The notes under the pieces are model-generated. The model made no database searches, was not told the origin of the DNA, and worked only from the letters and a program-made list of their open reading frames with translations. Below, one piece after another: positions 614-50,206 of a DNA stretch of 64,000 nucleotides. The stretch's first letter is position 1; the number at the start of each line of letters is the position of its first letter. The DNA is from Escherichia phage phiAPCEc03, in sequence record NC_047754.1. One strand, written 5' to 3'. The translations under genes were made by a program, and so were the position numbers.

Positions 614-702
614 GGAAGAATAGCATAACGGTATTGCAGCAGATTGCTAATCTGTCGGTTTGAAATATAGCCTTGTGGGTTCGATTCCCACTTCTTCCGC
701 CA
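614..702 (+). tRNA. tRNA-Ser (anticodon GCU), long variable arm, CCA encoded
   Basis: 7-bp acceptor stem GGAAGAA/TTCTTCC, anticodon loop TTGCTAA, T-loop GGTTCGATTCC, 3-prime GCCA. Confidence 0.8.
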
Positions 703-708
703 AATTCT

Positions 709-786
709 GGTTCTCAAGCTCATATGGTATGAGCACCCGGCTCATAACCGGAAGGTACGTAGGTTCGAATCCTCGGGGAGCCACCA
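709..786 (+). tRNA. tRNA-Met/Ile2-type (anticodon CAU)
   Basis: Acceptor GGTTCTC/GGGAGCC pairs with two G-U; D-arm GCTC-ATATGGTAT-GAGC; anticodon loop CTCATAA; T-stem only 3 bp, so moderate confidence. Confidence 0.55.
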
Positions 787-807
787 TCTTGATTAGAGAG
801 GTTACAA

Positions 808-996
808 GTGGAACTATACCTAGTTTGTGTTGTGTTTATTCCAGATAGGGAATACCCGGATGAATATAAAAAAGGATATAGGTTAGCTAGGGCTATCTCT
901 GAAGCTCAGGCTATGGATAAAGTGGCAGATTATATGATTATGGTAGAAAACGTACACTATATCGACTCCCTTGAAGCCTCAAAAGTAATTGAATAA
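808..996 (+). CDS. hypothetical protein (GTG start)
   Basis: 62-aa ORF with AGAGAGG RBS upstream of GTG. Confidence 0.35.
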   Translation: MELYLVCVVFIPDREYPDEYKKGYRLARAISEAQAMDKVADYMIMVENVHYIDSLEASKVIE

Positions 997-1005
997 GGAA
1001 ACTAT

Positions 1006-1191
1006 ATGTCTAAGTTTCAAGAACTCAAGCAAGAGCTAGAAGAATGTGTCTGTCCTGACTGTCTAGGAGTTGGGGAAGCCTCTGATGCAGAAGCAGGAGA
1101 TACTTTTTGCAATATCTGGGTTTGTCCTACATGCAAAGGCACAGGCATTAATCCTACCTGTGGTATTTCTCTAGATATTGAAAGAGGATAA
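1006..1191 (+). CDS. small zinc-ribbon protein
   Basis: 61-aa ORF with two CxxC pairs (CPDC, CPTC). Confidence 0.5.
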   Translation: MSKFQELKQELEECVCPDCLGVGEASDAEAGDTFCNIWVCPTCKGTGINPTCGISLDIERG

Positions 1192-1291
1192 TACCTGTGA
1201 AACTAAAAGATTATTATATTGGTTGGTTTGTGGGACTAGTAGTAGGATTTTCACTAGGCTATAATATGTATCAACTAATAAACTGATTACA

Positions 1292-1369
1292 TGGGGGTGT
1301 AATCGAATTGGCATACATACCGTCCTTAAAATTCAGGTTTTGAGGGTTCGAATCCCTTGTCACGCACCA
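1292..1369 (+). pseudogene. degenerate tRNA-like element (no pairing acceptor stem)
   Basis: Canonical T-arm GAGGG-TTCGAAT-CCCTT and 3-prime ACCA; D-arm segment AATCGAATTGGC shared with the tRNA at 1482; no complementary 5-prime acceptor strand found. Confidence 0.3.
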
Positions 1370-1379
1370 AATTTGATGG

Positions 1380-1445
1380 TCAGAGTAAACTAAACCTACT
1401 ATCTCGGTTGAGCTGTTTTAATGGGTTCGAATCCCAGCGAGGCGT
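1380..1445 (+). pseudogene. degenerate tRNA-like element
   Basis: T-arm TGGG-TTCGAAT-CCCA present but no acceptor stem and no CCA. Confidence 0.25.
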
Positions 1446-1481
1446 AACTGCCTGGTGTGATAGAGGCATCATCTTATTATT

Positions 1482-1572
1482 GGAAGAGCAAATCGAATTG
1501 GCGACGAAAACCGCTTGGAAAGTGGCTGACTGGTAAAACGGCTTGAGAGTTCAAATCTCTCCTCTTCCGCCA
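1482..1572 (+). tRNA. class II tRNA, probably tRNA-Ser (anticodon GGA)
   Basis: Perfect acceptor GGAAGAG/CTCTTCC, perfect T-arm GAGAG-TTCAAAT-CTCTC, CCA encoded; anticodon loop TTGGAAA; D-arm and variable arm parse imperfectly. Confidence 0.55.
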
Positions 1573-1579
1573 AACAAAT

Positions 1580-1669
1580 GGAAGGTAGGGCGTAGTGGTA
1601 CGCAACTAGTCTTGAAAACTAGCCCGCTGTAGTGATACGGTGATGGTTCGACTCCATTACCTTCCTCCA
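1580..1669 (+). tRNA. tRNA-Ser (anticodon UGA), long variable arm
   Basis: Acceptor GGAAGGT/ACCTTCC, anticodon stem CTAGT/ACTAG with loop CTTGAAA, T-loop GGTTCGACTCC, CCA encoded. Confidence 0.85.
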
Positions 1670-1687
1670 ACTTATAAGGAAAACCTT

Positions 1688-1891
1688 ATGAAACATATTG
1701 TTAAGTATACTGAAAGTGAACGTGGGTGGGGCGGTGAAATCTGGTATCGTGGCTTTGATTCTGAAGAAGAAGCTAGAGCTGAGGTTCATGATACTAATAA
1801 AAATCTGCCAAAAGATCATGTACCAGACTACTATATTCAGGCTAAGTATGACGGTGTTAAAGATAAGGTTCCTGAAGGCTATAAGTTTTAA
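1688..1891 (+). CDS. hypothetical protein
   Basis: ORF starting MKHIVKY with AAGGAAA RBS; the upstream part of the listed ORF overlaps the tRNA. Confidence 0.5.
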   Translation: MKHIVKYTESERGWGGEIWYRGFDSEEEARAEVHDTNKNLPKDHVPDYYIQAKYDGVKDKVPEGYKF

Positions 1892-1899
1892 ATAATTCT

Positions 1900-2030
1900 T
1901 GGAATATGCCGGAATTGGTAGACGGGACTGCCGAATAGGTTTACTAGGAACATCCACTCCTAGAAATATACCTTAAAAGCGGTTGAGTTAAATGGTCTAA
2001 CTCATGAAGGTTCAAGTCCTTCTATTCCTT
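1900..2030 (+). ncRNA. tRNA-like structured element (oversized, about 130 nt)
   Basis: D-loop-like AATTGGTAGA near the 5-prime end, perfect T-arm GAAGG-TTCAAGT-CCTTC near the 3-prime end, acceptor-like pairing GGAATA/TATTCC, but 80 nt of extra sequence with two hairpins in between and no CCA. Confidence 0.3.
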
Positions 2031-2259
2031 GATACATCAATGGCTCAAAGTGTAACGGTGCTATTTGATGCTCTTGGAAAGACTTTCCCGACAGGCGTTC
2101 GGGGGTAAGCTTCTGAGGCTAGAATAGAAGAGTTTCTGAGAGCCGCCACAATTGAAAATTCGTACTCGTCTTGAGCTGCGTGCAATAGGGGATAACTTGA
2201 TTAGTATTCTAGAACATGCTAATTGAGGATGGTTTCGCTAACCCTGCGAGTTTTCAATT

Positions 2260-2336
2260 GTGGCTATATCATAATTGGTTAATGATCCTGATTGTGAATC
2301 AGGCCTATGTGGATTCGAATTCCACTAGCCACCCCA
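2260..2336 (+). tRNA. tRNA-His (anticodon GUG)
   Basis: Acceptor GTGGCTA/TAGCCAC, D-arm TCAT-AATTGGTTA-ATGA, anticodon arm CCTGA-TTGTGAA-TCAGG, T-arm GTGGA-TTCGAAT-TCCAC, CCA encoded. Confidence 0.85.
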
Positions 2337-2361
2337 AATTAATTTAAATAGGAAATAAAAT

Positions 2362-2535
2362 ATGGCTGATTTCTGCAAACAATGCTCCATTGATATGTGG
2401 GGCAGAGATACTGGTGACTTAGCTGGTCTGATTACAGAAGCCGAAGTCAAAGAAGGTTATGGTGCAGTTGTGGTTTGCGAAGGATGCGGAGTCATTCGAG
2501 TAGATCATGAAGGTAAGCGCCTTGAAGAAGGTTAG
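2362..2535 (+). CDS. small zinc-ribbon protein (57 aa)
   Basis: ORF MADFCKQCS...CEGCG with two CxxC pairs; below the 60-aa cutoff of the ORF track. Confidence 0.4.
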   Translation: MADFCKQCSIDMWGRDTGDLAGLITEAEVKEGYGAVVVCEGCGVIRVDHEGKRLEEG

Positions 2536-2601
2536 CCAAGTCGGTTAAGGCTGGGGTCTCTGAAATCCTGATCAGTGGTTCAAATCCACTACCTTCTGCC
2601 A
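2526..2601 (+). tRNA. tRNA-Gln (anticodon CUG)
   Basis: Acceptor AGAAGGT/ACCTTCT, anticodon loop CTCTGAA, T-arm AGTGG-TTCAAAT-CCACT, CCA encoded. Confidence 0.7.
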
Positions 2602-2606
2602 AACAA

Positions 2607-2684
2607 TTGGGATTAGCTTAGCTTGGCCTAAAGCTTCGGCCTTTGAAGTCGAGATCATTGGTTCAAATCCAATATCCCCTGCCA
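2607..2684 (+). tRNA. tRNA-Gln (anticodon UUG), imperfect acceptor stem
   Basis: Anticodon arm TCGGC-CTTTGAA-GTCGA, T-arm ATTGG-TTCAAAT-CCAAT, CCA encoded; only 5 of 7 acceptor pairs form. Confidence 0.5.
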
Positions 2685-2691
2685 AATAATC

Positions 2692-2767
2692 GCGGTTAAG
2701 CACACGGGTTGTGTCGCAGGCCTTCCAAGCCTCGCTGAGTAGGGTTCGATTCCCTCTAGCCGCTCCA
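2692..2767 (+). tRNA. tRNA-Gly (anticodon UCC), tentative
   Basis: Acceptor GCGGTTA/TAGCCGC with one G-U, anticodon loop CTTCCAA, T-loop GGGTTCGATTCCC, CCA encoded. Confidence 0.6.
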
Positions 2768-2783
2768 ACTTTAAGGGAACACT

Positions 2784-3035
2784 ATGCACGTTTTTGAGTT
2801 TCGTAATAAAAGTACTGATAAGCGAGTTATCATTATTGGAGAAACATATCGAGCATATGAACAAACTGACGGCTCTGTTATCTTGAATGATGAGAAAGGA
2901 GGTTTTAGCTTTTATCCAGAAGAACCTTATGAAGAGTTTCGAAAACAATTTAACCTAGACTGGAGAAAGCATTTAAACACTGTTGCTCCATCTGTAGTAT
3001 TGCCAACTACCAGTACTGTACCCTCTAATGGCTGA
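2784..3035 (+). CDS. hypothetical protein
   Basis: 83-aa ORF with GGGAAC RBS-like sequence. Confidence 0.5.
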   Translation: MHVFEFRNKSTDKRVIIIGETYRAYEQTDGSVILNDEKGGFSFYPEEPYEEFRKQFNLDWRKHLNTVAPSVVLPTTSTVPSNG

Positions 3036-3192
3036 CAACCTAAAAGTAAAGATTGATAAACAAAAGAAACGTGTAGAAGTAGAGATTGGCGAAGAACGTG
3101 TTGCCTTTACTTTCGAGTTTCTTCAGCAGTTGGCTATGACAGTTATGACTGATAAGTCTCCTGTTATTGAAAAAGAAATCCCGTTGAAATAA
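3028..3192 (+). CDS. hypothetical small protein (54 aa)
   Basis: ATG overlaps the previous stop; ORF MADNLKVKIDKQ ends immediately before the next tRNA. Confidence 0.35.
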   Translation: MADNLKVKIDKQKKRVEVEIGEERVAFTFEFLQQLAMTVMTDKSPVIEKEIPLK

Positions 3193-3200
3193 CGGGTTCT

Positions 3201-3287
3201 GCTGGGTTGGCAGAATGGTTGAATGCACCTGATTTGTAATCAGGAGGAGTAATCCCGTTGCAGGTTCGAATCCTGTGCCCAGCACCA
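3201..3287 (+). tRNA. tRNA with anticodon UGU (Thr by anticodon) and an atypical long variable region
   Basis: Acceptor GCTGGGT/GCCCAGC, perfect anticodon arm CCTGA-TTTGTAA-TCAGG, T-arm GCAGG-TTCGAAT-CCTGT, CCA encoded; 15-nt variable region is unusual for Thr. Confidence 0.55.
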
Positions 3288-3301
3288 ATTTAAGGACTAT
3301 T

Positions 3302-3469
3302 ATGTTTAAACTGTTAGTAGTTATCTGGTATAGTCAATCAAATAGAGCGAATACCTCCCACGTTATAGACTTTAATACTAAAAATGAAGCTGAAAAAGCA
3401 TATGCTAATTTAATAGAACGCAATAAAGAATCTCGTAGTATAGTTTATGAAGTGACTAAACTTTATTAA
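3302..3469 (+). CDS. hypothetical protein
   Basis: ORF MFKLLVVIWY with AAGGA RBS; upstream part of the listed ORF overlaps the tRNA. Confidence 0.45.
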   Translation: MFKLLVVIWYSQSNRANTSHVIDFNTKNEAEKAYANLIERNKESRSIVYEVTKLY

Positions 3470-3477
3470 AAATTCAT

Positions 3478-3530
3478 TTGCTTTCTCTCTTATATTCTTG
3501 TTATAATATTTATATAAATTAATGAGAGGG
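3478..3530 (+). promoter_or_regulatory. T5-type early sigma70 promoter
   Basis: -35 TTGCTT, 18-bp spacer, -10 TATAAT, then conserved TATAAATTAATGAGAGGG box before the ATG at 3538. Confidence 0.6.
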
Positions 3531-3537
3531 AAACCAA

Positions 3538-3831
3538 ATGAAACGTTATCTTTCTGTTGTGTTCCAAACTGGTGGTCAACGCTATACCTATGAATTTCCT
3601 AGCTCTTGGAAGATCAAAGAAGGTGATCAAGTTGTTGTGTTAACACCGCGTGATGGGTACAAGGTAGTAACGGTTAAGCAAGTCTTCACAAAAGATTATG
3701 AACCGTCTAAGTCTATTAACTATAAGATGATTCATGGTGTAGTTCGTCAAGTACCACGAGCGGAAGTCGAAATCAAAGTAGATAAAGATGGTAAACTTAA
3801 ATATACCTCTTGCTTAGACGAGTTGCTATAA
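3538..3831 (+). CDS. hypothetical protein
   Basis: 97-aa ORF downstream of the promoter. Confidence 0.6.
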   Translation: MKRYLSVVFQTGGQRYTYEFPSSWKIKEGDQVVVLTPRDGYKVVTVKQVFTKDYEPSKSINYKMIHGVVRQVPRAEVEIKVDKDGKLKYTSCLDELL

Positions 3832-4037
3832 TGAGGATTACTTTCACAGAAAAGATCATGAGTAACGGTGTTATGATCATTACCGCATGGGATGGTAATC
3901 AGTGGTGTAGTGTTTCAGGTATTAAGCCTGAAGAACAAACACTAGAAAATATCTCAAAGATTAAGCGAAGAATGGCAGAACGTGCACGACTTCCAGGTGC
4001 ACCTAGAAATGGCAAACGTTCTGCTGTAAAATGTTAA
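3831..4037 (+). CDS. hypothetical protein
   Basis: ORF MRITFTEK; start overlaps the upstream stop (TAATG). Confidence 0.45.
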   Translation: MRITFTEKIMSNGVMIITAWDGNQWCSVSGIKPEEQTLENISKIKRRMAERARLPGAPRNGKRSAVKC

Positions 4038-4038
4038 T

Positions 4039-4115
4039 GCTTCGGTAGCTTAGCGATCTAAAGCACTCGGCTGATAACCGAGAGATCGGGGGTTTAAATC
4101 CCTCCCGGAGTACCA
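4039..4115 (+). tRNA. tRNA-Ile (anticodon GAU)
   Basis: Acceptor GCTTCGG/CCGGAGT with G-U pairs, perfect anticodon arm CTCGG-CTGATAA-CCGAG, T-arm GGGGG-TTTAAAT-CCCTC, CCA encoded. Confidence 0.8.
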
Positions 4116-4211
4116 AATTTAGGAATTAAGACTATGCGTCCAGGAAAGTTTAAAAAAGCTAATTGGTCTAAAGAGTATAAAGAATACTTACTTAGTCTAA
4201 TAAAACATAAT

Positions 4212-4287
4212 AGTTAGTTGGCAGAGTGGTTATGCACCTCCTTCATACGGAGCGACTACAGTGGTTCAAATCCACTACTAACTACCA
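4212..4287 (+). tRNA. tRNA-Met/Ile2-type (anticodon CAU)
   Basis: Acceptor AGTTAGT/ACTAACT, anticodon loop TTCATAC, T-arm AGTGG-TTCAAAT-CCACT, CCA encoded. Confidence 0.7.
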
Positions 4288-44711: not shown

Positions 44712-45611
44712 ATGTACTACTCTCTAATGAGAGAGTCAAAAGTTATAGTTGAGTATGATGGTAGGGCATTTCATTTTGATGCCCTATCAAACTATGATAT
44801 ACAGACTTCCTACGAGGAATTCAAGACTCTTCGTAGGACTGTTCATCGTAGAACTAACTATGCAGACTCTATTATAAATGCTCAAACTCCCTCTTCTATC
44901 TCTCTAGCAGTAAATTTCAGCAATACTCTTACTGAGGCTAACTTCTTTGAATGGTTAGGTTTTGATAGAAAAGGTAATACTTTCTTACTCCCACTATATA
45001 GTAATAATATTGAACCTATTATGTTCAATATCTATATAGTAAACAAAGATAATAACTGTGTATATTTTGAAAACTGCTATGTATCTACAGTAGATTTTTC
45101 TTTAGATAAGAATATACCAATTCTTAATGTTGGTATTGAGTCTGGGAAATTCTCAGAAGTATCTACCTATAGAGAAGCCGCTTCTATTATACAGGGTGAA
45201 GTAATGTCTTACAGCCCAGTAATAGCTTCTACTAATGGCAGCATCTTACCCGGTCTTATTTCTGCCTCTTTATCTTTCCAACAGCAGTGCTCCTGGAGAG
45301 AGGATAAGAGTGTTTTTGATATAAATAAAATTTATAATAATAAAAGAGCCTATGTAACTGAAATGAATGCTTCGGCAACCCTTTCTCTGTATTACTTAAA
45401 ACGTTTTGCAGGAGATATGGTTTATAATATAGAACCGGAGATAGATGTACCTTTAACGATAAGAAATAATAATATTTCTATAGATTTTCCTTCAGCACGT
45501 ATTACAAAACGCCTAGATTTCTCAGATGTGTATAGAGTTGAGTGGGATATTATACCTACTGCCTCCTCAGACCCAGTGAGAATAGATTTCTTTGGAGAAA
45601 TTAAAAAATGA
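44712..45611 (+). CDS. tail protein (p140-like, putative)
   Basis: 299-aa ORF between tail tube and chaperone genes. Confidence 0.4.
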   Translation: MYYSLMRESKVIVEYDGRAFHFDALSNYDIQTSYEEFKTLRRTVHRRTNYADSIINAQTPSSISLAVNFSNTLTEANFFEWLGFDRKGNTFLLPLYSNNIEPIMFNIYIVNKDNNCVYFENCYVSTVDFSLDKNIPILNVGIESGKFSEVSTYREAASIIQGEVMSYSPVIASTNGSILPGLISASLSFQQQCSWREDKSVFDINKIYNNKRAYVTEMNASATLSLYYLKRFAGDMVYNIEPEIDVPLTIRNNNISIDFPSARITKRLDFSDVYRVEWDIIPTASSDPVRIDFFGEIKK

Positions 45612-46012
45612 TTAATTTAAAAGATATTACTCTTGATACTCGTACTATTACTCTTTCCTACCCAGGTATGCCGAACTTTAAACTAGAACTTAACTATATG
45701 TCTCGTGCTACCTCTAAACGTGTTATTTCTTCTGCTAAACGCGATGAATGGGTTAACGGTACTTTGGTTCAGGTACAGGATGATGATAAGTTCATTGAAG
45801 CCTTCGTTGATGCTGCGATTAAAGGTTGGACTGGTTTGACTGTTGGTGACGTTGAAAAACTGATGCTGATTGAAACAGATGCTGATCCTGAGACTGAAGT
45901 TCCTTTTAGTCGCGATAATGCTGTAATGCTTATGCAGAACTCTTCTGCGTTTGATTCCTGGATCAACCAGACAGTGTTCCACTTAGACACTTTTCGTAGC
46001 TCAAAAGCGTAA
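45608..46012 (+). CDS. tail assembly chaperone (putative)
   Basis: 134-aa acidic protein upstream of the tape measure gene. Confidence 0.45.
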   Translation: MINLKDITLDTRTITLSYPGMPNFKLELNYMSRATSKRVISSAKRDEWVNGTLVQVQDDDKFIEAFVDAAIKGWTGLTVGDVEKLMLIETDADPETEVPFSRDNAVMLMQNSSAFDSWINQTVFHLDTFRSSKA

Positions 46013-46073
46013 AGAGTTACTAGATGCTGTTGCTGATTTTGCAGACAAATGTATTAAAAGCTCAGCATCTAAA

Positions 46074-46442
46074 ATGACTAAACAACAATATTTAATACTT
46101 TGCGAGTCAATGGGTATAGAGCCTGATCCTAAGGCTATGCCCGTTGAACTTGAGGATTTTCCACCTATTGTAGCTATTAGTATGAATATTTATAATAGTC
46201 TAGTTGACTGTTTCATACCTGGTGACTTCCCTATCTTTATAGGTAAAGACAAAGCTGCTTTAGGTGTTTTATTTGATATTTATGGGATTACTGATCCTAT
46301 AGAAAAAGAATTTGTTCTACACATTATCAATATATTTGATGCTAAAGCTGTAGACGCTGCACGTAAACGTGCTGAGAAGCATAAGCCGCAAAACGGTAGA
46401 ATACCTAACGTTAAGCCGCACGCCAGATCTCGAGCACGGTAA
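46074..46442 (+). CDS. tail assembly chaperone second ORF (possible frameshift product)
   Basis: 122-aa ORF with no obvious RBS; its frame is open back to 45987 and overlaps the end of the upstream ORF. Confidence 0.4.
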   Translation: MTKQQYLILCESMGIEPDPKAMPVELEDFPPIVAISMNIYNSLVDCFIPGDFPIFIGKDKAALGVLFDIYGITDPIEKEFVLHIINIFDAKAVDAARKRAEKHKPQNGRIPNVKPHARSRAR

Positions 46443-46477
46443 AAGTTTCCTCCAATGGGCGTTCCACGATGAGGCTT

Positions 46478-46509
46478 GGCTCTGGGTGATTTGCCCAGAG
46501 CCTTTTTTA
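46478..46509 (+). terminator. rho-independent terminator
   Basis: Hairpin GGCTCTGGG...CCCAGAGCC plus TTTTTT. Confidence 0.75.
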
Positions 46510-46525
46510 TTGGGAAAAATAAAAT

Positions 46526-49500
46526 ATGACTGATAAGCTAATACGAGAATTACTAATAGACGTTAAACAGAAGGGGGCAACCCGTACTGCAAAGTCTATT
46601 GAAAACGTATCTGATGCATTAGAAAATGCTGCTGCTGCTTCCGAACTGACAAATGAACAGTTAGGTAAAATGCCCAAAACTCTATATTCCATTGAGAGGG
46701 CAGCAGATAGAGCAGCGAAAAGTCTTACTAAAATGCAAGCTAGCAGAGGTATGCTTAGTATTACTAAATCTATTAATGATATAGGAGCTAAGTTAGATGA
46801 TCTCGCTATTACAATGATTGAAGTAGCAGATAAATTAGAAGTCGGATTTGATGGAGTTTCTAGATCTGTTAAAACAATGGGCAATGATGTTGCAGCTGCA
46901 ACAGAGAAGGTTCAAGATAGGTTATATGATACTAATAGGGCTTTAGGAGGTACGGCTAAAGGCTTTAATGATACTACTGGTGCTGCTGGTAGAGCTTCTA
47001 GAGCTATTGGTAATACTTCTGGTTCAGCACGTGGTGCAACTCGTGATTTTGCAGCAATGGCTAAAATTGGTGGTAGTTTACCTATTATGTACGCAGCTCT
47101 TGCTTCCAATATCTTCGTTCTGCAATCCGCGTTCGAACAACTTAAACTAGGTGATCAGTTAAATCGTCTAGAAAAATTTGGTGTTATAGTAGGTACTCAG
47201 ACTGGTACTCCTGTTCAGTCTCTTGCTAGATCACTACAAGAAGCTGCCGGGTATGCTATCTCCTTTGAAGAAGCAATGAGACAAGCATCCTCAGCGTCCG
47301 CTTATGGCTTTGATGCCGAACAACTTAATAAATTTGGTTTAGTAGCTCGTCGTGCTGCTGCTGTTCTTGGTGTTGATATGACTGATGCACTTAACCGTGT
47401 AATTAGGGGCGTATCTAAACAAGAAATCGAACTTCTGGATGAACTTGGTGTCACCATCCGTCTTAATGACGCATACGCTGATTATGTTAAACAGTTAAAT
47501 GCTGCAAACACAGGTATAACATATAATGTTAATAGTCTTACCACTTTCCAGAAACAACAAGCATACGCTAACGCGGTAATTGCTGAATCTACTAAGCGGT
47601 TTGGCTACCTAGATGAAGTACTACGTGCAACTCCATGGGAGCAATTTGCTGCTAATGCAGATGCTGCACTAAGAAAAATACAACAAGCTGCTGCTAAGTA
47701 TTTAGGGCCAGTAATTGATGCTATCAACACAGTATTTTATACATCTCAGGCTTCTATATCTGCTGAGGCAGCTAGAGCTCAAGAAAAAACTAATAGACAG
47801 ATAGACCCTACCAACGTTGGTGCTGTTGCTTTAAGTTTAGCTGCTTCTGAAGAAGGCTATAATAAAGCTCTAGATATGTATAAGGAATCTCTTGATAAGC
47901 GTAATAAGCTAAAATCTGAGTTCGATAAACGAATGGAACAAGCAGATTTCTATACAAAACTAGCTATACGTCAAGTTGGTGAAGGTATTCCTGTTGGTCT
48001 TGCAGCAGCAGGTGCTTCGGAGGCCAATAAGCAATTTGTAGCAGAAACTGCAGCTATGGGTTTACAAGTAACTAGACTTGGTAAAGAAGTAGAGGATTCT
48101 ACTGAAAACCTCAATGCTTGGAAATCAGCGTATCAAGCTGCTGGAGCTGCTGCTGCAAAAGCTAACCCCGAGTTTCAGAAGCAAATTAATCTACAGAGAG
48201 ATACTACTGATCCTGATGCTGTATACGATTTTAACTCTACTGTATTAAAAGGACTAACTGAGCAGCAGAAAGCGTACAATCAGACTAAGAAAACTGCTAG
48301 TGACTTAGCTAATGATATACAGAACGTTGCTCAGAATACAGATACTGCTGCTAAAACTAGTACTACGTTAGCAGATGCTATAAAAAACATAGAATCTCTA
48401 TCTCTAGGTACGGGTAAAAGTGCAGATGAGTATGTTAAAAATCTTAATTTAGGCTATAATACGTTATCTGAGATGAAAACTGCTTCTCAGGCCTTGTCCG
48501 AGTATGTTAAACTAACTGGTAATGAAACTAAAAATCAGTTAGCAGTTCAACAGAAAATAGCCGATGTGTATAATCAAACTAAGGATAAGGAAAAGGCTCA
48601 GGAAGCTGGTAGACGTTTAGAGTTGCAACAGTTAGAAGAGCAAGAAGCTGCTTTACGCCGTGTTCTTCAAACAAACCAGGGAAATAAAGCTGTTGAGAAA
48701 GAAATTGAAAAAATTCAGCTGGAGAAACTTAAACTTACCAATCAGGGTATGGAGGCCCAGAAGAAGATTAAGGATTATACAGATAAAATCCTGGGTGTAG
48801 ATCGTGAGATAGCTCTTCTGAATGACCGCACTATGACTACTACTCAATATAGATTAGCTCAGCTAAAACTAGAACTAACTATAGAGAAAGAGAAGTACGA
48901 ATGGTATACAAAACAAGCGGACAAACAGAAAGAGGCAGAACAGTCTAGACGTGCTCAAGCACAAATAAGCAGAGAAATATGGGAAGCGGAGAAACAGGCA
49001 ACTGCCTCACATGTATCAGCTCTCATGGATGCGCTAGAGGTCAGCCAAACGCAGAGGAATGTTACTGGTCAATCTCAAATTCTTACTGAAAGATTATCCA
49101 TTCTGCAGCAACAGCTGGAGCTGTCTAAGGGCAATACTGAGGAAGAAATTAAATATCGTAATGAGATTTATAAAACTTCGGCGGCCTTAGAGCAGCTTAG
49201 AAAACAGAGAGATATCCAGATGCAGCAACAGGTGGGATCTTCTGTAGGTGCTGTATATACTCCTACAACTGGACTATCTGGGGAGGATAAAGATTTTGCT
49301 GATATGCAAAATAGAATGGCTTCTTATGATCAGGCAATCTCTAAACTATCTGAATTAAATTCTGAAGCAACCGCTGTGGCTCAAAGTATGGGTAACTTAA
49401 CTAACGCTATGATTCAGTTCTCTCAGGGATCCCTAGATACTACCTCCTTGATTGCTTCTGGCATGCAAACTGTATCTTCTATGATTCAGTATAGTACTAG

Positions 49501-50206
49501 TCAACAGGTTAGTGCAATTGATCAGGCTATTGCAGCAGAACAGAAACGTGATGGTAAATCAGAAGCATCTAAAGCTAAGTTGAAGAAGTTGGAAGCTGAA
49601 AAGCTGAAGATTCAACAAGACGCAGCTAAGAAGCAGATTATCATCCAAACTGCAGTAGCTGTAATGCAAGCGGCAACAGCTGTACCATACCCGTTCTCTA
49701 TTCCTTTAATGGTTGCGGCAGGTTTAGCGGGTGCATTGGCGTTAGCACAAGCATCTTCTGCATCTGGTATGTCAAGTATTGCTGATTCTGGGGCGGATAC
49801 AACTAGTTACTTAACCTTAGGAGAGCGTCAGAAGAATATAGATGTGTCCATGTCTGCTAATGCAGGTGAACTATCTTATATTCGTGGCGATCAAGGTATA
49901 GGTAGTGCCAACTCTTTCGTTCCTCGTGCTGAGGGTGGTAATATGTATCCAGGGGTTAGCTATCAAATGGGTGAGCATGGTACAGAAGTAGTTACCCCTA
50001 TGGTTCCTATGAAAGCTACACCTAATGATGAGCTAAAAACCTCGTCTAACTCAACTTCAGGAAGACCTATCATCCTGAATATTAGTGCTATGGATGCTGC
50101 AAGTTTTAGAGAGTTTGCTTCTAGTAATAGTGGTGCTCTAAGAGACGCGGTAGAATTAGCTCTGAATGAGAACGGTGCTAGTCTGAAAACATTAGGAAAT
50201 TCTTAA
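46526..50206 (+). CDS. tape measure protein (pb2-like)
   Basis: 1226-aa Ala/Gln-rich coiled-coil protein with hydrophobic segment near the C-terminus. Confidence 0.85.
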   Translation: MTDKLIRELLIDVKQKGATRTAKSIENVSDALENAAAASELTNEQLGKMPKTLYSIERAADRAAKSLTKMQASRGMLSITKSINDIGAKLDDLAITMIEVADKLEVGFDGVSRSVKTMGNDVAAATEKVQDRLYDTNRALGGTAKGFNDTTGAAGRASRAIGNTSGSARGATRDFAAMAKIGGSLPIMYAALASNIFVLQSAFEQLKLGDQLNRLEKFGVIVGTQTGTPVQSLARSLQEAAGYAISFEEAMRQASSASAYGFDAEQLNKFGLVARRAAAVLGVDMTDALNRVIRGVSKQEIELLDELGVTIRLNDAYADYVKQLNAANTGITYNVNSLTTFQKQQAYANAVIAESTKRFGYLDEVLRATPWEQFAANADAALRKIQQAAAKYLGPVIDAINTVFYTSQASISAEAARAQEKTNRQIDPTNVGAVALSLAASEEGYNKALDMYKESLDKRNKLKSEFDKRMEQADFYTKLAIRQVGEGIPVGLAAAGASEANKQFVAETAAMGLQVTRLGKEVEDSTENLNAWKSAYQAAGAAAAKANPEFQKQINLQRDTTDPDAVYDFNSTVLKGLTEQQKAYNQTKKTASDLANDIQNVAQNTDTAAKTSTTLADAIKNIESLSLGTGKSADEYVKNLNLGYNTLSEMKTASQALSEYVKLTGNETKNQLAVQQKIADVYNQTKDKEKAQEAGRRLELQQLEEQEAALRRVLQTNQGNKAVEKEIEKIQLEKLKLTNQGMEAQKKIKDYTDKILGVDREIALLNDRTMTTTQYRLAQLKLELTIEKEKYEWYTKQADKQKEAEQSRRAQAQISREIWEAEKQATASHVSALMDALEVSQTQRNVTGQSQILTERLSILQQQLELSKGNTEEEIKYRNEIYKTSAALEQLRKQRDIQMQQQVGSSVGAVYTPTTGLSGEDKDFADMQNRMASYDQAISKLSELNSEATAVAQSMGNLTNAMIQFSQGSLDTTSLIASGMQTVSSMIQYSTSQQVSAIDQAIAAEQKRDGKSEASKAKLKKLEAEKLKIQQDAAKKQIIIQTAVAVMQAATAVPYPFSIPLMVAAGLAGALALAQASSASGMSSIADSGADTTSYLTLGERQKNIDVSMSANAGELSYIRGDQGIGSANSFVPRAEGGNMYPGVSYQMGEHGTEVVTPMVPMKATPNDELKTSSNSTSGRPIILNISAMDAASFREFASSNSGALRDAVELALNENGASLKTLGNS

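What the first reader, a model, noticed from the sequence alone, without database searches (positions are those of the whole stretch)
45983..46076. Possible programmed frameshift joining the two ORFs upstream of the tape measure gene
The ORF at 46074-46442 has no recognisable RBS, and its reading frame is open upstream to 45987, overlapping the last codons of 45608-46012 in the +1 frame. The overlap contains the U-rich stretch ACTTTTCG (45989-45996). In many siphophages the tail assembly chaperone pair before the tape measure gene is expressed as a frameshift fusion. Here a +1 shift (or -2) would be required, which is less common, so this is tentative.
Basis: inference. Interest (0 to 1): 0.4.

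Follow-up and report, generated by a model that had tools for sequence, protein, structure and literature searches.

The report
T5-type tail chaperone +1 frameshift
The two small genes before the tape measure gene of this T5-like phage are almost certainly read as one fusion protein when a few ribosomes slip one base forward on the sequence UUU-CGU. It is a forward-slipping member of the well-known phage tail-chaperone frameshift, which published T5 work says it could not predict.

Summary
ORF1 is 45608-46012. The ORF2 frame is open back to 45987 and lies +1 relative to ORF1. The ATG at 46074 has no Shine-Dalgarno pairing.

The window is a T5-like phage (Tequintavirus). The pair sits between the p140 baseplate-tube gene and the tape measure gene.

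In 23 loci, down to about 30% identity, ORF2 always overlaps the ORF1 end in the +1 frame. All 23 carry an in-frame UUU_CGN in the overlap (45992-45997 here). The "intergenic" stretch 46013-46073 evolves like coding sequence in the ORF2 frame.

More distant homologues place the same downstream domain in the -1 frame, behind the classical heptamers A_AAA_AAC or A_AAU_UUU. So the fusion protein is the conserved entity.

Best explanation: tRNA-Phe slips from UUU to UUC, giving a 277-aa GT-like fusion beside the 134-aa G-like protein (confidence 0.85). UUU_CGN is the influenza PA-X and amalgavirus +1 motif, and UUU_Ynn is shift-prone in bacteria.

No stimulatory element was found, the efficiency is unknown and no protein data exist.

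One record (phage Shivani) already annotates a joined chaperone, yet a 2018 paper says T5 lacks a predicted signal. I file it as a new member of a known kind, of moderate interest.

The parts
45608..46012 (+). ORF1: G-like tail assembly (tape measure) chaperone, 134 aa, the product of standard decoding (homologue of T5.143)
   Evidence: ORF list. PHROG phrog_313 'tail assembly chaperone', E=6e-34, profile positions 12-141 of 258. Precomputed Pfam PF27119 Phage_YdaY on homologues. AF2 model pLDDT 83.6, with best structural neighbours being phage tail assembly chaperones.
45992..45997 (+). Proposed +1 shift site UUU_CGU. P-site tRNA-Phe re-pairs from UUU (45992-45994) to UUC (45993-45995), C45995 is not read as the first base of a codon, and decoding resumes at GUA 45996.
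   Evidence: In-frame UUU_CGU/CGA/CGC lies inside the overlap in all 18 phage loci and 5 of 6 metagenomic FR-type representatives, while the preceding codon varies. F129 and R130 are invariant in the protein alignments. Motif precedent: PMC5052127 and PMC5009743.
45984..45986 (+). TAG that closes the +1 (ORF2) frame just upstream of the shift site
   Evidence: Sequence and translation.
45987..46012 (+). 26-nt overlap of the ORF1 frame and the ORF2 frame; unusually conserved
   Evidence: 2 of 26 sites vary among 31 distinct T5-like sequences, against 117 of 379 in the ORF1 body; Fisher p=0.013.
45996..46442 (+). T-like part read in the +1 frame after the shift (148 aa plus stop). With ORF1 codons 1-129 (45608-45994) it gives the 277-aa GT-like fusion.
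   Evidence: Fusion built. PHROG phrog_3914 (E=1e-56), and phrog_313 positions 170-258 of the same profile that ORF1 matches. Collinear alignment with the fusions of relatives.
46013..46073 (+). Stretch annotated as intergenic in most records; translated only in the fusion
   Evidence: Variable sites by codon position in the ORF2 frame are 6/1/15 (chi-square p=0.001), the same pattern as the ORF1 and ORF2 bodies. There is no ATG, GTG or TTG in this frame between 45987 and 46074.
46074..46076 (+). ATG usually annotated as the ORF2 start; probably an internal Met codon
   Evidence: No SD pairing (-0.1 kcal/mol). It is replaced by Ile, Leu or Phe codons in Klebsiella and Vibrio lineages. Annotators disagree on the start: equivalents of 46074 or 46110, or starts overlapping ORF1.
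46021..46071 (+). Local hairpin whose 3' arm abuts ATG 46074. Conserved only among close T5-like relatives; role unknown; not required by the model.
   Evidence: MFE z=-3.4. The helix is 93% paired with 1-2 compensatory changes in 19 sequences. No comparable structure in divergent lineages.
44712..45611 (+). Context: baseplate tube protein p140 gene, immediately upstream
   Evidence: Pfam PF23779, E=5e-140.
46526..50206 (+). Context: tape measure protein (pb2-like) gene, immediately downstream
   Evidence: Pfam TMP_N and TMP_C.

Best explanation
The two ORFs are the G and T parts of a lambda G/GT-type tail assembly chaperone pair of a T5-like phage.

- Most ribosomes translate ORF1 to its stop and make the 134-aa G-like chaperone.
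- A minority, with tRNA-Phe on UUU (45992-45994) in the P site and CGU in the A site, slip one base forward. The tRNA then pairs with UUC (45993-45995).
- Those ribosomes read GUA (45996) onward in the +1 frame to the stop at 46440-46442. This makes a 277-aa fusion: 129 aa shared with G plus 148 aa of T.

By analogy with lambda, the G part would bind the tape measure protein and the T part would recruit the tail tube protein. The fixed slip frequency would set the G:GT ratio.

Shown here:
- the anatomy;
- its conservation across the family;
- coding constraint on the linker;
- homology of both halves to tail-chaperone families;
- -1 frameshift versions of the same fusion in relatives.

Inferred:
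- that the slip occurs, and on this codon;
- its efficiency (probably a few per cent or less);
- the division of labour between G and T.
For: (1) Identity and position. The window is a Tequintavirus-like genome. The pair lies between p140 and the tape measure gene.

(2) Conservation of the arrangement.
- In 18 phage loci, ORF2 is always +1 to ORF1, always overlaps its end (14-122 nt) and always has in-frame UUU_CGU or UUU_CGA in the overlap.
- These loci cover about 16 genus-level Demerecviridae lineages, with hosts Escherichia/Salmonella, Enterobacter, Pantoea, Serratia, Pectobacterium, Klebsiella, Providencia, Proteus and Vibrio, down to about 30% identity.
- The codon before UUU varies: ACU, ACG, ACC, UCA, UCC, UCU, AAC, GGG, UUG.
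- Five of six more distant metagenomic representatives show the same, with CGC, CGA or CGU.
- In two lineages ORF1 stops right after CGU and the overlap is only 14 nt. That confines the shift to the N-N-F-R codons.

(3) The linker is translated. Positions 46013-46073 show 6/1/15 variable sites at codon positions 1/2/3 of the ORF2 frame (p=0.001). No start codon is available upstream of 46074.

(4) No independent start.
- ATG 46074 lacks an SD.
- The first ATG lies 62-134 nt after the ORF1 stop and is not positionally conserved.
- Most candidate starts lack an SD.

(5) One family. ORF1 and ORF2 match the N- and C-terminal halves of the same PHROG profile, phrog_313. The fusions are 262-286 aa.

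(6) Independent confirmation from relatives.
- Homologues have the T part in the -1 frame behind A_AAA_AAC followed by a stop, or behind A_AAU_UUU on the conserved Asn-Phe codons.
- Their fusions align collinearly across the junction with the +1 fusions.
- Two -1 relatives that keep Phe-Arg encode it as UUU_AGA and UUC_CGC, not UUU_CGN.
- Phe is UUU in 23 of 23 +1 loci and in 4 of 6 -1 loci (Fisher p=0.037).

(7) Mechanistic precedent.
- UUU_CGN is the +1 site of influenza A PA-X and the site proposed for amalgaviruses (PMC5052127).

(8) A joined two-piece 'tape measure chaperone' CDS is annotated in Salmonella phage Shivani, whose product is 96% identical over the ORF1 part.
Against: - There is no experimental evidence here for a fusion protein.
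- A 2018 genome paper, citing Zivanovic et al. 2014, states that the T5 tape measure chaperone has no predicted frameshift signal (PMC6256483).
- No conserved stimulator was found: no SD-like sequence upstream and no conserved downstream structure.
- CGU is the commonest Arg codon in this genome (284 of 724). So a 'hungry' A-site codon is not evident.
- UUU_CGN is not avoided in the window's other genes (11 observed, 11.3 expected). The bare motif must therefore be weak or context-dependent.
- A few lineages have an SD-preceded ATG in the T frame (Serratia Slocum -7.7, Vibrio D149 -6.4, Proteus Stubb -6.1 kcal/mol). Some independent initiation cannot be excluded.
- One metagenomic FR-type locus (L068) has stops in the +1 frame after UUU_CGA. 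That locus did not translate to its query and may contain errors.
- The Phe is conserved in the protein family whatever the frameshift type. Part of the motif's conservation is therefore protein-level.
Confidence: 0.85

Rival explanations
1. There are two separate chaperone genes. ORF2 is translated on its own from ATG 46074 (or 46110), as most public annotations assume, and there is no recoding.
For: An ATG exists at 46074 in T5-like and Pectobacterium phages. Nearly all of the public records examined list two separate CDSs. Some lineages have an ATG with a good SD in this frame. The published view is that no frameshift signal is predicted.
Against: - ATG 46074 has no SD (-0.1 kcal/mol), against -4.2 to -9.3 for neighbouring genes.
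- The ATG is not conserved: it is Ile, Leu or Phe in Klebsiella and Vibrio lineages. The first ATG position varies from 62 to 134 nt after the ORF1 stop.
- The 61 nt upstream of the ATG evolve as coding sequence in this frame.
- The frame is open into ORF1 in every lineage.
- Relatives carry canonical -1 heptamers at the equivalent place.
Confidence: 0.07
2. The fusion is made by a -2 shift rather than a +1 shift. This reaches the same net frame but reads two bases twice, for example on the A-rich UCA_AAA_GCG near the ORF1 stop.
For: The net frame is the same. The Shivani joined CDS spans 832 nt including its stop, and its product is listed as 277 aa. That fits two bases read twice, whereas a one-base skip would give 276 aa there. 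This is an inference from lengths, because the join coordinates were not visible.
Against: - CAAAAG is not conserved. In several lineages ORF1 stops directly after CGU, or within three codons of it, so no such site exists.
- The two bases 5' of UUU, which a -2 re-pairing would need, vary between lineages.
- UUU to UUC re-pairing is available in all 23 loci.
Confidence: 0.05
3. RNA polymerase slippage on the T run (45991-45994) changes the frame in a fraction of the mRNAs.
For: A run of four T is present in the T5-like sequences.
Against: The run is only three T in most lineages (AAC TTT CGA and similar). From established knowledge, that is far shorter than the homopolymer runs known to support transcriptional slippage.
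Confidence: 0.01
4. The overlap and the motif are a chance or purely protein-level feature, and no fusion is made or needed.
For: In a single genome the open extension has P about 0.1, and UUU_CGN occurs at the expected frequency elsewhere. Phe at this position is conserved in the family regardless of frame arrangement.
Against: - The +1 overlap with UUU_CGN is universal across 23 loci.
- The linker shows coding-type substitutions.
- Both halves match a single PHROG profile.
- Relatives use -1 heptamers.
- Codon choice differs between +1 and -1 lineages.
Confidence: 0.02

Closest known systems
Phage lambda gpG/gpGT tail assembly chaperone frameshift, and its conserved counterparts in long-tailed phages (Levin 1993; Xu, Hendrix & Duda 2004, 2013, 2014; as summarised in PMC5009743)
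   Same: Two ORFs lie directly before the tape measure gene. The second lacks its own start and overlaps the end of the first. The short product and the fusion have similar sizes: 134 and 277 aa here, against 140 and 279 aa for lambda (the lambda sizes are from memory). Neither product is expected in virions. The slip would set a fixed ratio (30:1 in lambda).
   Different: The direction is +1 on UUU_CGN, not -1 on an X_XXY_YYZ heptamer. Here the -1 frame is closed by a stop.
Influenza A virus PA-X and amalgavirus +1 frameshifting at (UCC_)UUU_CGN (Jagger 2012; Firth 2012; PMC5052127)
   Same: The core is identical: UUU in the P site, CGN in the A site, and tRNA-Phe re-pairing to UUC. There is no evident stimulatory element, and a low level is expected. 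More than one CGN codon is used across lineages (CGU, CGA, CGC here).
   Different: These are bacterial ribosomes and a dsDNA phage. The UCC E-site codon is not conserved; only the Pectobacterium phages have it. In enterobacteria CGU is a common codon, so rarity of the A-site codon cannot be the explanation.
Bacterial UUU_Ynn +1 shift-prone sites (Fu & Parker 1994; Schwartz & Curran 1997) and the Yersinia YopN-TyeA fusion (PMC5009743)
   Same: The tetranucleotide logic is the same (UUU followed by a pyrimidine), on bacterial ribosomes and without an adjacent stop codon. The result is a fusion of two adjacent gene products.
   Different: Here the site is conserved across a whole virus family, in an essential morphogenetic gene pair.
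Escherichia coli prfB (RF2) +1 frameshift at CUU_UGA (established knowledge)
   Same: A P-site tRNA slips +1 onto an overlapping cognate codon.
   Different: prfB uses a stop codon in the A site and an upstream SD-like stimulator. Neither is present here.
Joined 'tape measure chaperone' CDS of Salmonella phage Shivani (KP143763, CPT_Shivani132; UniProt A0A0A7TXI3)
   Same: It covers the same two ORFs in a close relative (96% identical over the ORF1 part; 270 of 276 fusion residues), annotated as one two-piece product.
   Different: Its length implies a different junction, probably two bases re-read. Its genome announcement does not contain the word frameshift, and most other records of the family do not follow it.
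-1 frameshifting homologues of the same chaperone family in uncultured T5-like phages (L054-L057, L059-L063)
   Same: The G and T domains are homologous, the gene context is the same (p140 upstream, tape measure downstream), and the junction is at the same place in the protein.
   Different: The T part is in the -1 frame behind A_AAA_AAC or A_AAU_UUU. These loci have no UUU_CGN.

Membership tests
G/GT-type tail assembly chaperone frameshift (lambda-like) | Two ORFs located between the tail tube/baseplate tube genes and the tape measure gene | tested here: met
   p140 at 44712-45611, ORF1, ORF2, then the tape measure gene at 46526-50206. The order is the same in all relatives.
G/GT-type tail assembly chaperone frameshift (lambda-like) | The downstream ORF overlaps the 3' end of the upstream ORF in another frame and lacks a conserved start or RBS | tested here: met
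   The overlap is 26 nt here and 14-122 nt in relatives. SD energy is -0.1 kcal/mol, and the ATG is not conserved.
G/GT-type tail assembly chaperone frameshift (lambda-like) | A canonical -1 slippery heptamer X_XXY_YYZ in the overlap | tested here: not met
   The -1 frame is closed by TAG at 45997-45999, and the T part is in the +1 frame. Canonical heptamers are present only in distant homologues.
G/GT-type tail assembly chaperone frameshift (lambda-like) | The arrangement is conserved among diverged relatives despite low sequence identity | tested here: met
   18 phage loci and 5 metagenomic loci with +1, and 9 loci with -1, all give collinear fusions.
G/GT-type tail assembly chaperone frameshift (lambda-like) | Sequence or fold relationship to tail assembly chaperones | tested here: inconclusive
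   The PHROG families phrog_313 and phrog_3914 are named tail assembly chaperone. The AF2 model's BFVD neighbours are tail assembly chaperones, but beyond the T5 group the TM-scores are at most 0.56. The solved HK97 chaperone 2ob9 gives only E=1.2 and TM 0.37-0.43. There is no Pfam hit in the local copy.
G/GT-type tail assembly chaperone frameshift (lambda-like) | Both G and GT are produced, in a fixed ratio, and both are needed for tail assembly | not testable with these tools
   This needs proteomics and genetics in infected cells.
+1 frameshifting at UUU_CGN / UUU_Ynn | In-frame UUU followed by CGN inside the overlap, with the +1 frame open from that point | tested here: met
   UUU_CGU at 45992-45997, with the +1 frame open from 45987 to 46439. 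The same holds in 23 of 24 FR-type loci.
+1 frameshifting at UUU_CGN / UUU_Ynn | Codon-level (not only amino-acid-level) conservation of the motif | tested here: met
   UUU and CGN are used in 23 of 23 +1 loci. Genome-wide use is 63% UUU for Phe and 60% CGN for Arg. Relatives of the -1 type with Phe-Arg use UUU_AGA and UUC_CGC. Fisher p=0.037 for the Phe codon.
+1 frameshifting at UUU_CGN / UUU_Ynn | UCC in the E-site position, as in the influenza minimal cassette | tested here: not met
   The preceding codon is ACU here and varies among lineages. It is UCC only in the Pectobacterium phages. This context enhances the influenza shift; it does not define the motif.
+1 frameshifting at UUU_CGN / UUU_Ynn | Demonstrated trans-frame product with the junction at Phe | not testable with these tools
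   This needs mass spectrometry or a reporter assay.

The most novel reading that the evidence does not exclude
All Demerecviridae, including the model phage T5, make their GT-type tail chaperone by an unstimulated +1 slip of tRNA-Phe on UUU_CGN. This is the same minimal cassette as influenza PA-X and the amalgaviruses. Within one protein family the recoding has switched between classical -1 heptamers and this +1 site, in at least one lineage at the very same Asn-Phe codons (A_AAU_UUU versus AAC_UUU_CGN). If so, this would be a family-wide, essential use of UUU_CGN frameshifting on bacterial ribosomes. It would also correct the published statement that T5 lacks a chaperone frameshift.
Probability: 0.45. 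Interest if true: 0.6.

Novelty: new member of a known kind. Interest (0 to 1): 0.5.

Why it matters
- T5 is a structural and assembly model for siphophages. Knowing that its chaperone pair is G plus a 277-aa GT fusion changes how tail assembly experiments and annotations should be designed.
- Nearly all of the public T5-like records examined list two unrelated small proteins with inconsistent starts. About 900 records hold the pair.
- It gives a natural, conserved bacterial example of the UUU_CGN +1 site. The site could be dissected genetically in E. coli.
- The family also offers a natural series of -1 and +1 solutions to the same problem, useful for studying how recoding signals are exchanged in evolution.
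- The kind of system (G/GT frameshift) and the slip chemistry (UUU_Y) are both already known, so this is a refinement rather than a new principle.

Tried and rejected
- A protein search with the 277-aa fusion returned no hit, although ORF1 alone found 18. I treated this as a limitation of the word index, not as evidence.
- Local Pfam gave nothing for either ORF. PDB sequence searches gave nothing useful. Rfam gave nothing in 45400-46700.
- Zivanovic et al. 2014 (PMC3911642) is not held, so the 'no frameshift signal in T5' statement is known only through PMC6256483.
- Several literature searches for a described T5 or Demerecviridae chaperone frameshift found none.
- Stimulatory RNA structure: the first predicted hairpin (45996-46020) is not conserved even among T5-like phages. 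The second (46021-46071) is conserved only in the close group. Folding energies downstream of the site in 16 lineages scatter around background. I therefore rejected a structure as a general stimulator.
- An SD-like stimulator upstream was rejected on inspection of 18 lineages.
- A -1 shift was rejected because of the stop at 45997-45999.
- Avoidance of UUU_CGN elsewhere in the genome was tested and not found.

Full report
**What the window is**

The region matches 444 T5-like phage records at 80-99% identity, and T5 itself at 94%. The neighbouring genes are:
- the tail tube gene (464 aa);
- the baseplate tube protein p140 gene (44712-45611, Pfam PF23779, E=5e-140);
- the tape measure protein gene (46526-50206, TMP_N and TMP_C);
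- the distal tail protein pb9 gene.

The two ORFs of the finding occupy the slot that tail assembly chaperone genes occupy in long-tailed phages. They correspond to T5.143 and T5.142.

**Observation**

All stated coordinates are right.
- ORF1 is 45608-46012.
- The ORF2 frame is +1 relative to ORF1. It is closed by TAG at 45984-45986 and open from 45987 to the stop at 46440-46442.
- The overlap is 26 nt.
- In the ORF1 frame the U-rich stretch reads ACU UUU CGU (45989-45997).
- The -1 frame has a stop at 45997-45999.
- The ATG at 46074 has essentially no anti-SD complementarity (-0.1 kcal/mol), and the alternative ATG at 46110 has -1.8. Eleven neighbouring structural genes have -4.2 to -9.3.

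Alone, these facts are weak. A 29-codon open extension has a chance probability of about 0.1. UUU_CGN occurs 11 times in-frame in the window's genes against 11.3 expected.

**Comparative evidence**

I collected the homologous locus from 18 phage genomes. They represent about 16 genus-level lineages of Demerecviridae: Tequintavirus, Epseptimavirus, Sugarlandvirus, Hongcheonvirus, Myunavirus, Priunavirus, Novosibvirus, Pogseptimavirus, Thalassavirus, Jesfedecavirus, and unclassified Enterobacter, Pantoea, Serratia and Vibrio phages. Protein identity falls to about 30%.

In every one:
- ORF2 is in the +1 frame relative to ORF1;
- ORF2 is open back into ORF1, with an overlap of 14-122 nt;
- the overlap contains an in-frame UUU CGU or UUU CGA.

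The codon before UUU is not conserved (ACU, ACG, ACC, UCA, UCC, UCU, AAC, GGG, UUG). The ORF1 tail after CGN varies from 0 to 12 codons in both length and sequence. In two lineages ORF1 stops immediately after CGU. There the overlap is only 14 nt, which confines any shift to the Asn-Asn-Phe-Arg codons.

The first ATG in the ORF2 frame lies 62-134 nt beyond the ORF1 stop and is not positionally conserved. The Met codon at 46074 is Ile, Leu or Phe in Klebsiella and Vibrio phages, and most candidate starts have no SD.

Public annotations disagree accordingly. They use equivalents of 46074 or of 46110, or arbitrary GTG/TTG starts that overlap ORF1.

**The linker is translated**

Among 31 distinct T5-like sequences, the 61 nt between the ORF1 stop and ATG 46074 show 6, 1 and 15 variable sites at codon positions 1, 2 and 3 of the ORF2 frame (chi-square p=0.001). 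That is the same signature as the bodies of ORF1 (26/4/87) and ORF2 (18/12/75).

The 26-nt overlap is much less variable than the rest of ORF1 (2 of 26 against 117 of 379, p=0.013). No ATG, GTG or TTG exists in this frame between 45987 and 46074. Ribosomes can therefore reach the linker only from ORF1.

**Both halves belong to one protein**

ORF1 matches positions 12-141, and ORF2 positions 170-258, of the same PHROG profile (phrog_313, tail assembly chaperone, 258 positions).

The predicted fusions are 262-286 aa. Here it is 277 aa: 129 aa shared with the 134-aa short product plus 148 aa. This is close to the lambda G and GT sizes, which I recall from memory.

In about 900 phage records that hold both halves, they always lie in two frames and never in one.

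An AlphaFold model of ORF1 (pLDDT 83.6) finds phage tail assembly chaperones as its structural neighbours in the viral library. Its similarity to the solved HK97 chaperone is only weak.

**Relatives that use -1**

An exhaustive HMMER search with ORF1 found 323 cluster representatives. Of 132 full-length ones:
- 55 have Phe-Arg near the C-terminus;
- 14 end in ...Lys-Asn;
- 25 have Phe-(Thr/Ser/Asn/Gln)-Lys.

The DNA of sampled members shows the following.
- Loci ending in Lys-Asn have the T part in the -1 frame behind the canonical heptamer A_AAA_AAC, followed directly by a stop (L054-L057, L062, L063).
- L061 has A_AAA_AAC two codons before the conserved Phe.
- L059 and L060 have A_AAU_UUU, formed by the conserved Asn-Phe codons themselves.
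- All sit between a p140-family gene or tube gene and a tape measure gene where the contig allows.

The -1 fusions align collinearly with the +1 fusions across the junction. Residues encoded after the shift in T5-like phages are encoded before the shift in these relatives.

Two -1 relatives keep Phe-Arg but spell it UUU_AGA and UUC_CGC. All 23 +1 loci spell it UUU_CGN.

Five of six further FR-type metagenomic representatives have UUU_CGC, UUU_CGA or UUU_CGU with the T part in the +1 frame. The sixth (L068) has stops in that frame, but its locus does not translate to the query protein and may be erroneous.

**Mechanism**

The only feature shared by all +1 lineages is UUU followed by C. tRNA-Phe (anticodon GAA) reads both UUU and UUC, so a one-base forward slip keeps, and even improves, the pairing.

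This is the documented +1 site of influenza A PA-X, and the site proposed for amalgaviruses (PMC5052127). The Atkins et al. [quoted passage not shown]

I found no stimulator:
- the upstream 12 nt are not SD-like;
- downstream folding energies in 16 lineages scatter around background.

By analogy with PA-X, described as unstimulated and very low, and with lambda G:GT at 30:1, I expect a low, fixed efficiency. This is inference.

A -2 shift gives the same frame but needs re-pairing to bases that vary between lineages. Transcriptional slippage is implausible on a run of three or four T. A -1 shift is excluded by a stop codon.

**What was known**

Within the searchable library, no paper describes a chaperone frameshift in T5 or Demerecviridae. 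[quoted passage not shown] 2014. I could not read that paper.

However, the GenBank record of Salmonella phage Shivani (2015) annotates a two-piece 'tape measure chaperone' CDS that spans both ORFs, next to the short one. Its 277-aa product is the top structural hit. From its span (832 nt with the stop) and length, that join appears to re-read two bases rather than skip one; a one-base skip would give 276 aa there.

So the idea of a fusion exists in at least one database record. The site, the direction, the family-wide conservation and the link to -1 relatives appear not to be described.

**Verdict**

This is a real, conserved recoding site. It is a G/GT-type tail chaperone frameshift, executed as a +1 slip on UUU_CGU at 45992-45997. 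Confidence is about 0.85 that the fusion is made this way.

It is a new member of a known kind. It is of moderate interest because T5 is a model phage and because the published view and most annotations miss it.

Noticed in passing
window 46478-46512: A strong terminator-like hairpin (11 bp, 7 G-C pairs, followed by TTTTTTATT) sits between the end of ORF2 and the tape measure gene start at 46526. Equivalent terminators are annotated in phages Lindwurm, PR1, Slocum and T5. A terminator directly before an essential, long late gene suggests attenuation or differential expression of the chaperones and the tape measure protein.
   Followed up: partly
window 46021-46071: A hairpin has its 3' arm ending three bases before ATG 46074. 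Among 19 T5-like sequences the helix is 93% paired, with one or two compensatory, synonymous double changes (for example U-A to C-G in L029). It is absent in divergent lineages. It could mask internal initiation or affect mRNA stability.
   Followed up: partly
window, 73 long ORFs genome-wide: UUU is followed by a pyrimidine far less often than by a purine (108 against 324). UUC shows no such bias (130 against 127). This fits general avoidance of shift-prone UUU_Y dicodons, although UUU_CGN itself is not depleted (11 observed, 11.3 expected).
   Followed up: partly
L059 1603-1623 and L060 (uncultured T5-like phages): In these relatives the -1 slippery heptamer A_AAU_UUU is formed by the same conserved Asn-Phe codons that precede CGN in the +1 lineages. 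This suggests that the switch between -1 and +1 recoding happened at one and the same Phe codon.
   Followed up: partly
L068 1273-1450: This FR-type homologue has UUU_CGA, but two stops lie in the +1 frame before the T domain. The locus did not translate to the query protein. It is either an assembly error or a lineage with a different junction, possibly at the ORF1 stop.
   Followed up: no
window 614-4287: A cluster of eight tRNA genes (Ser x2, His, Gln x2, Thr, Ile, Met). No tRNA-Phe or tRNA-Arg gene lies in the window, so whether the phage alters the supply of the tRNAs used at the shift site could not be judged.
   Followed up: no
public records H218 (PQ773600.1) and P0001: T5-like chaperone sequences appear in records labelled Corynebacterium phage (41-kb record), Listeria phage and Campylobacter phage, and as an 'Enterococcus faecalis' partial protein that is 96% identical to ORF1. 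These are probably contamination or mislabelling in the databases.
   Followed up: no
L037 and L039 (Vibrio phages AG74, D149) about 1880-2690: In several Vibrio T5-like phages an extra ORF of about 250 aa lies between the chaperone pair and the tape measure gene. It is absent from the enterobacterial phages.
   Followed up: no
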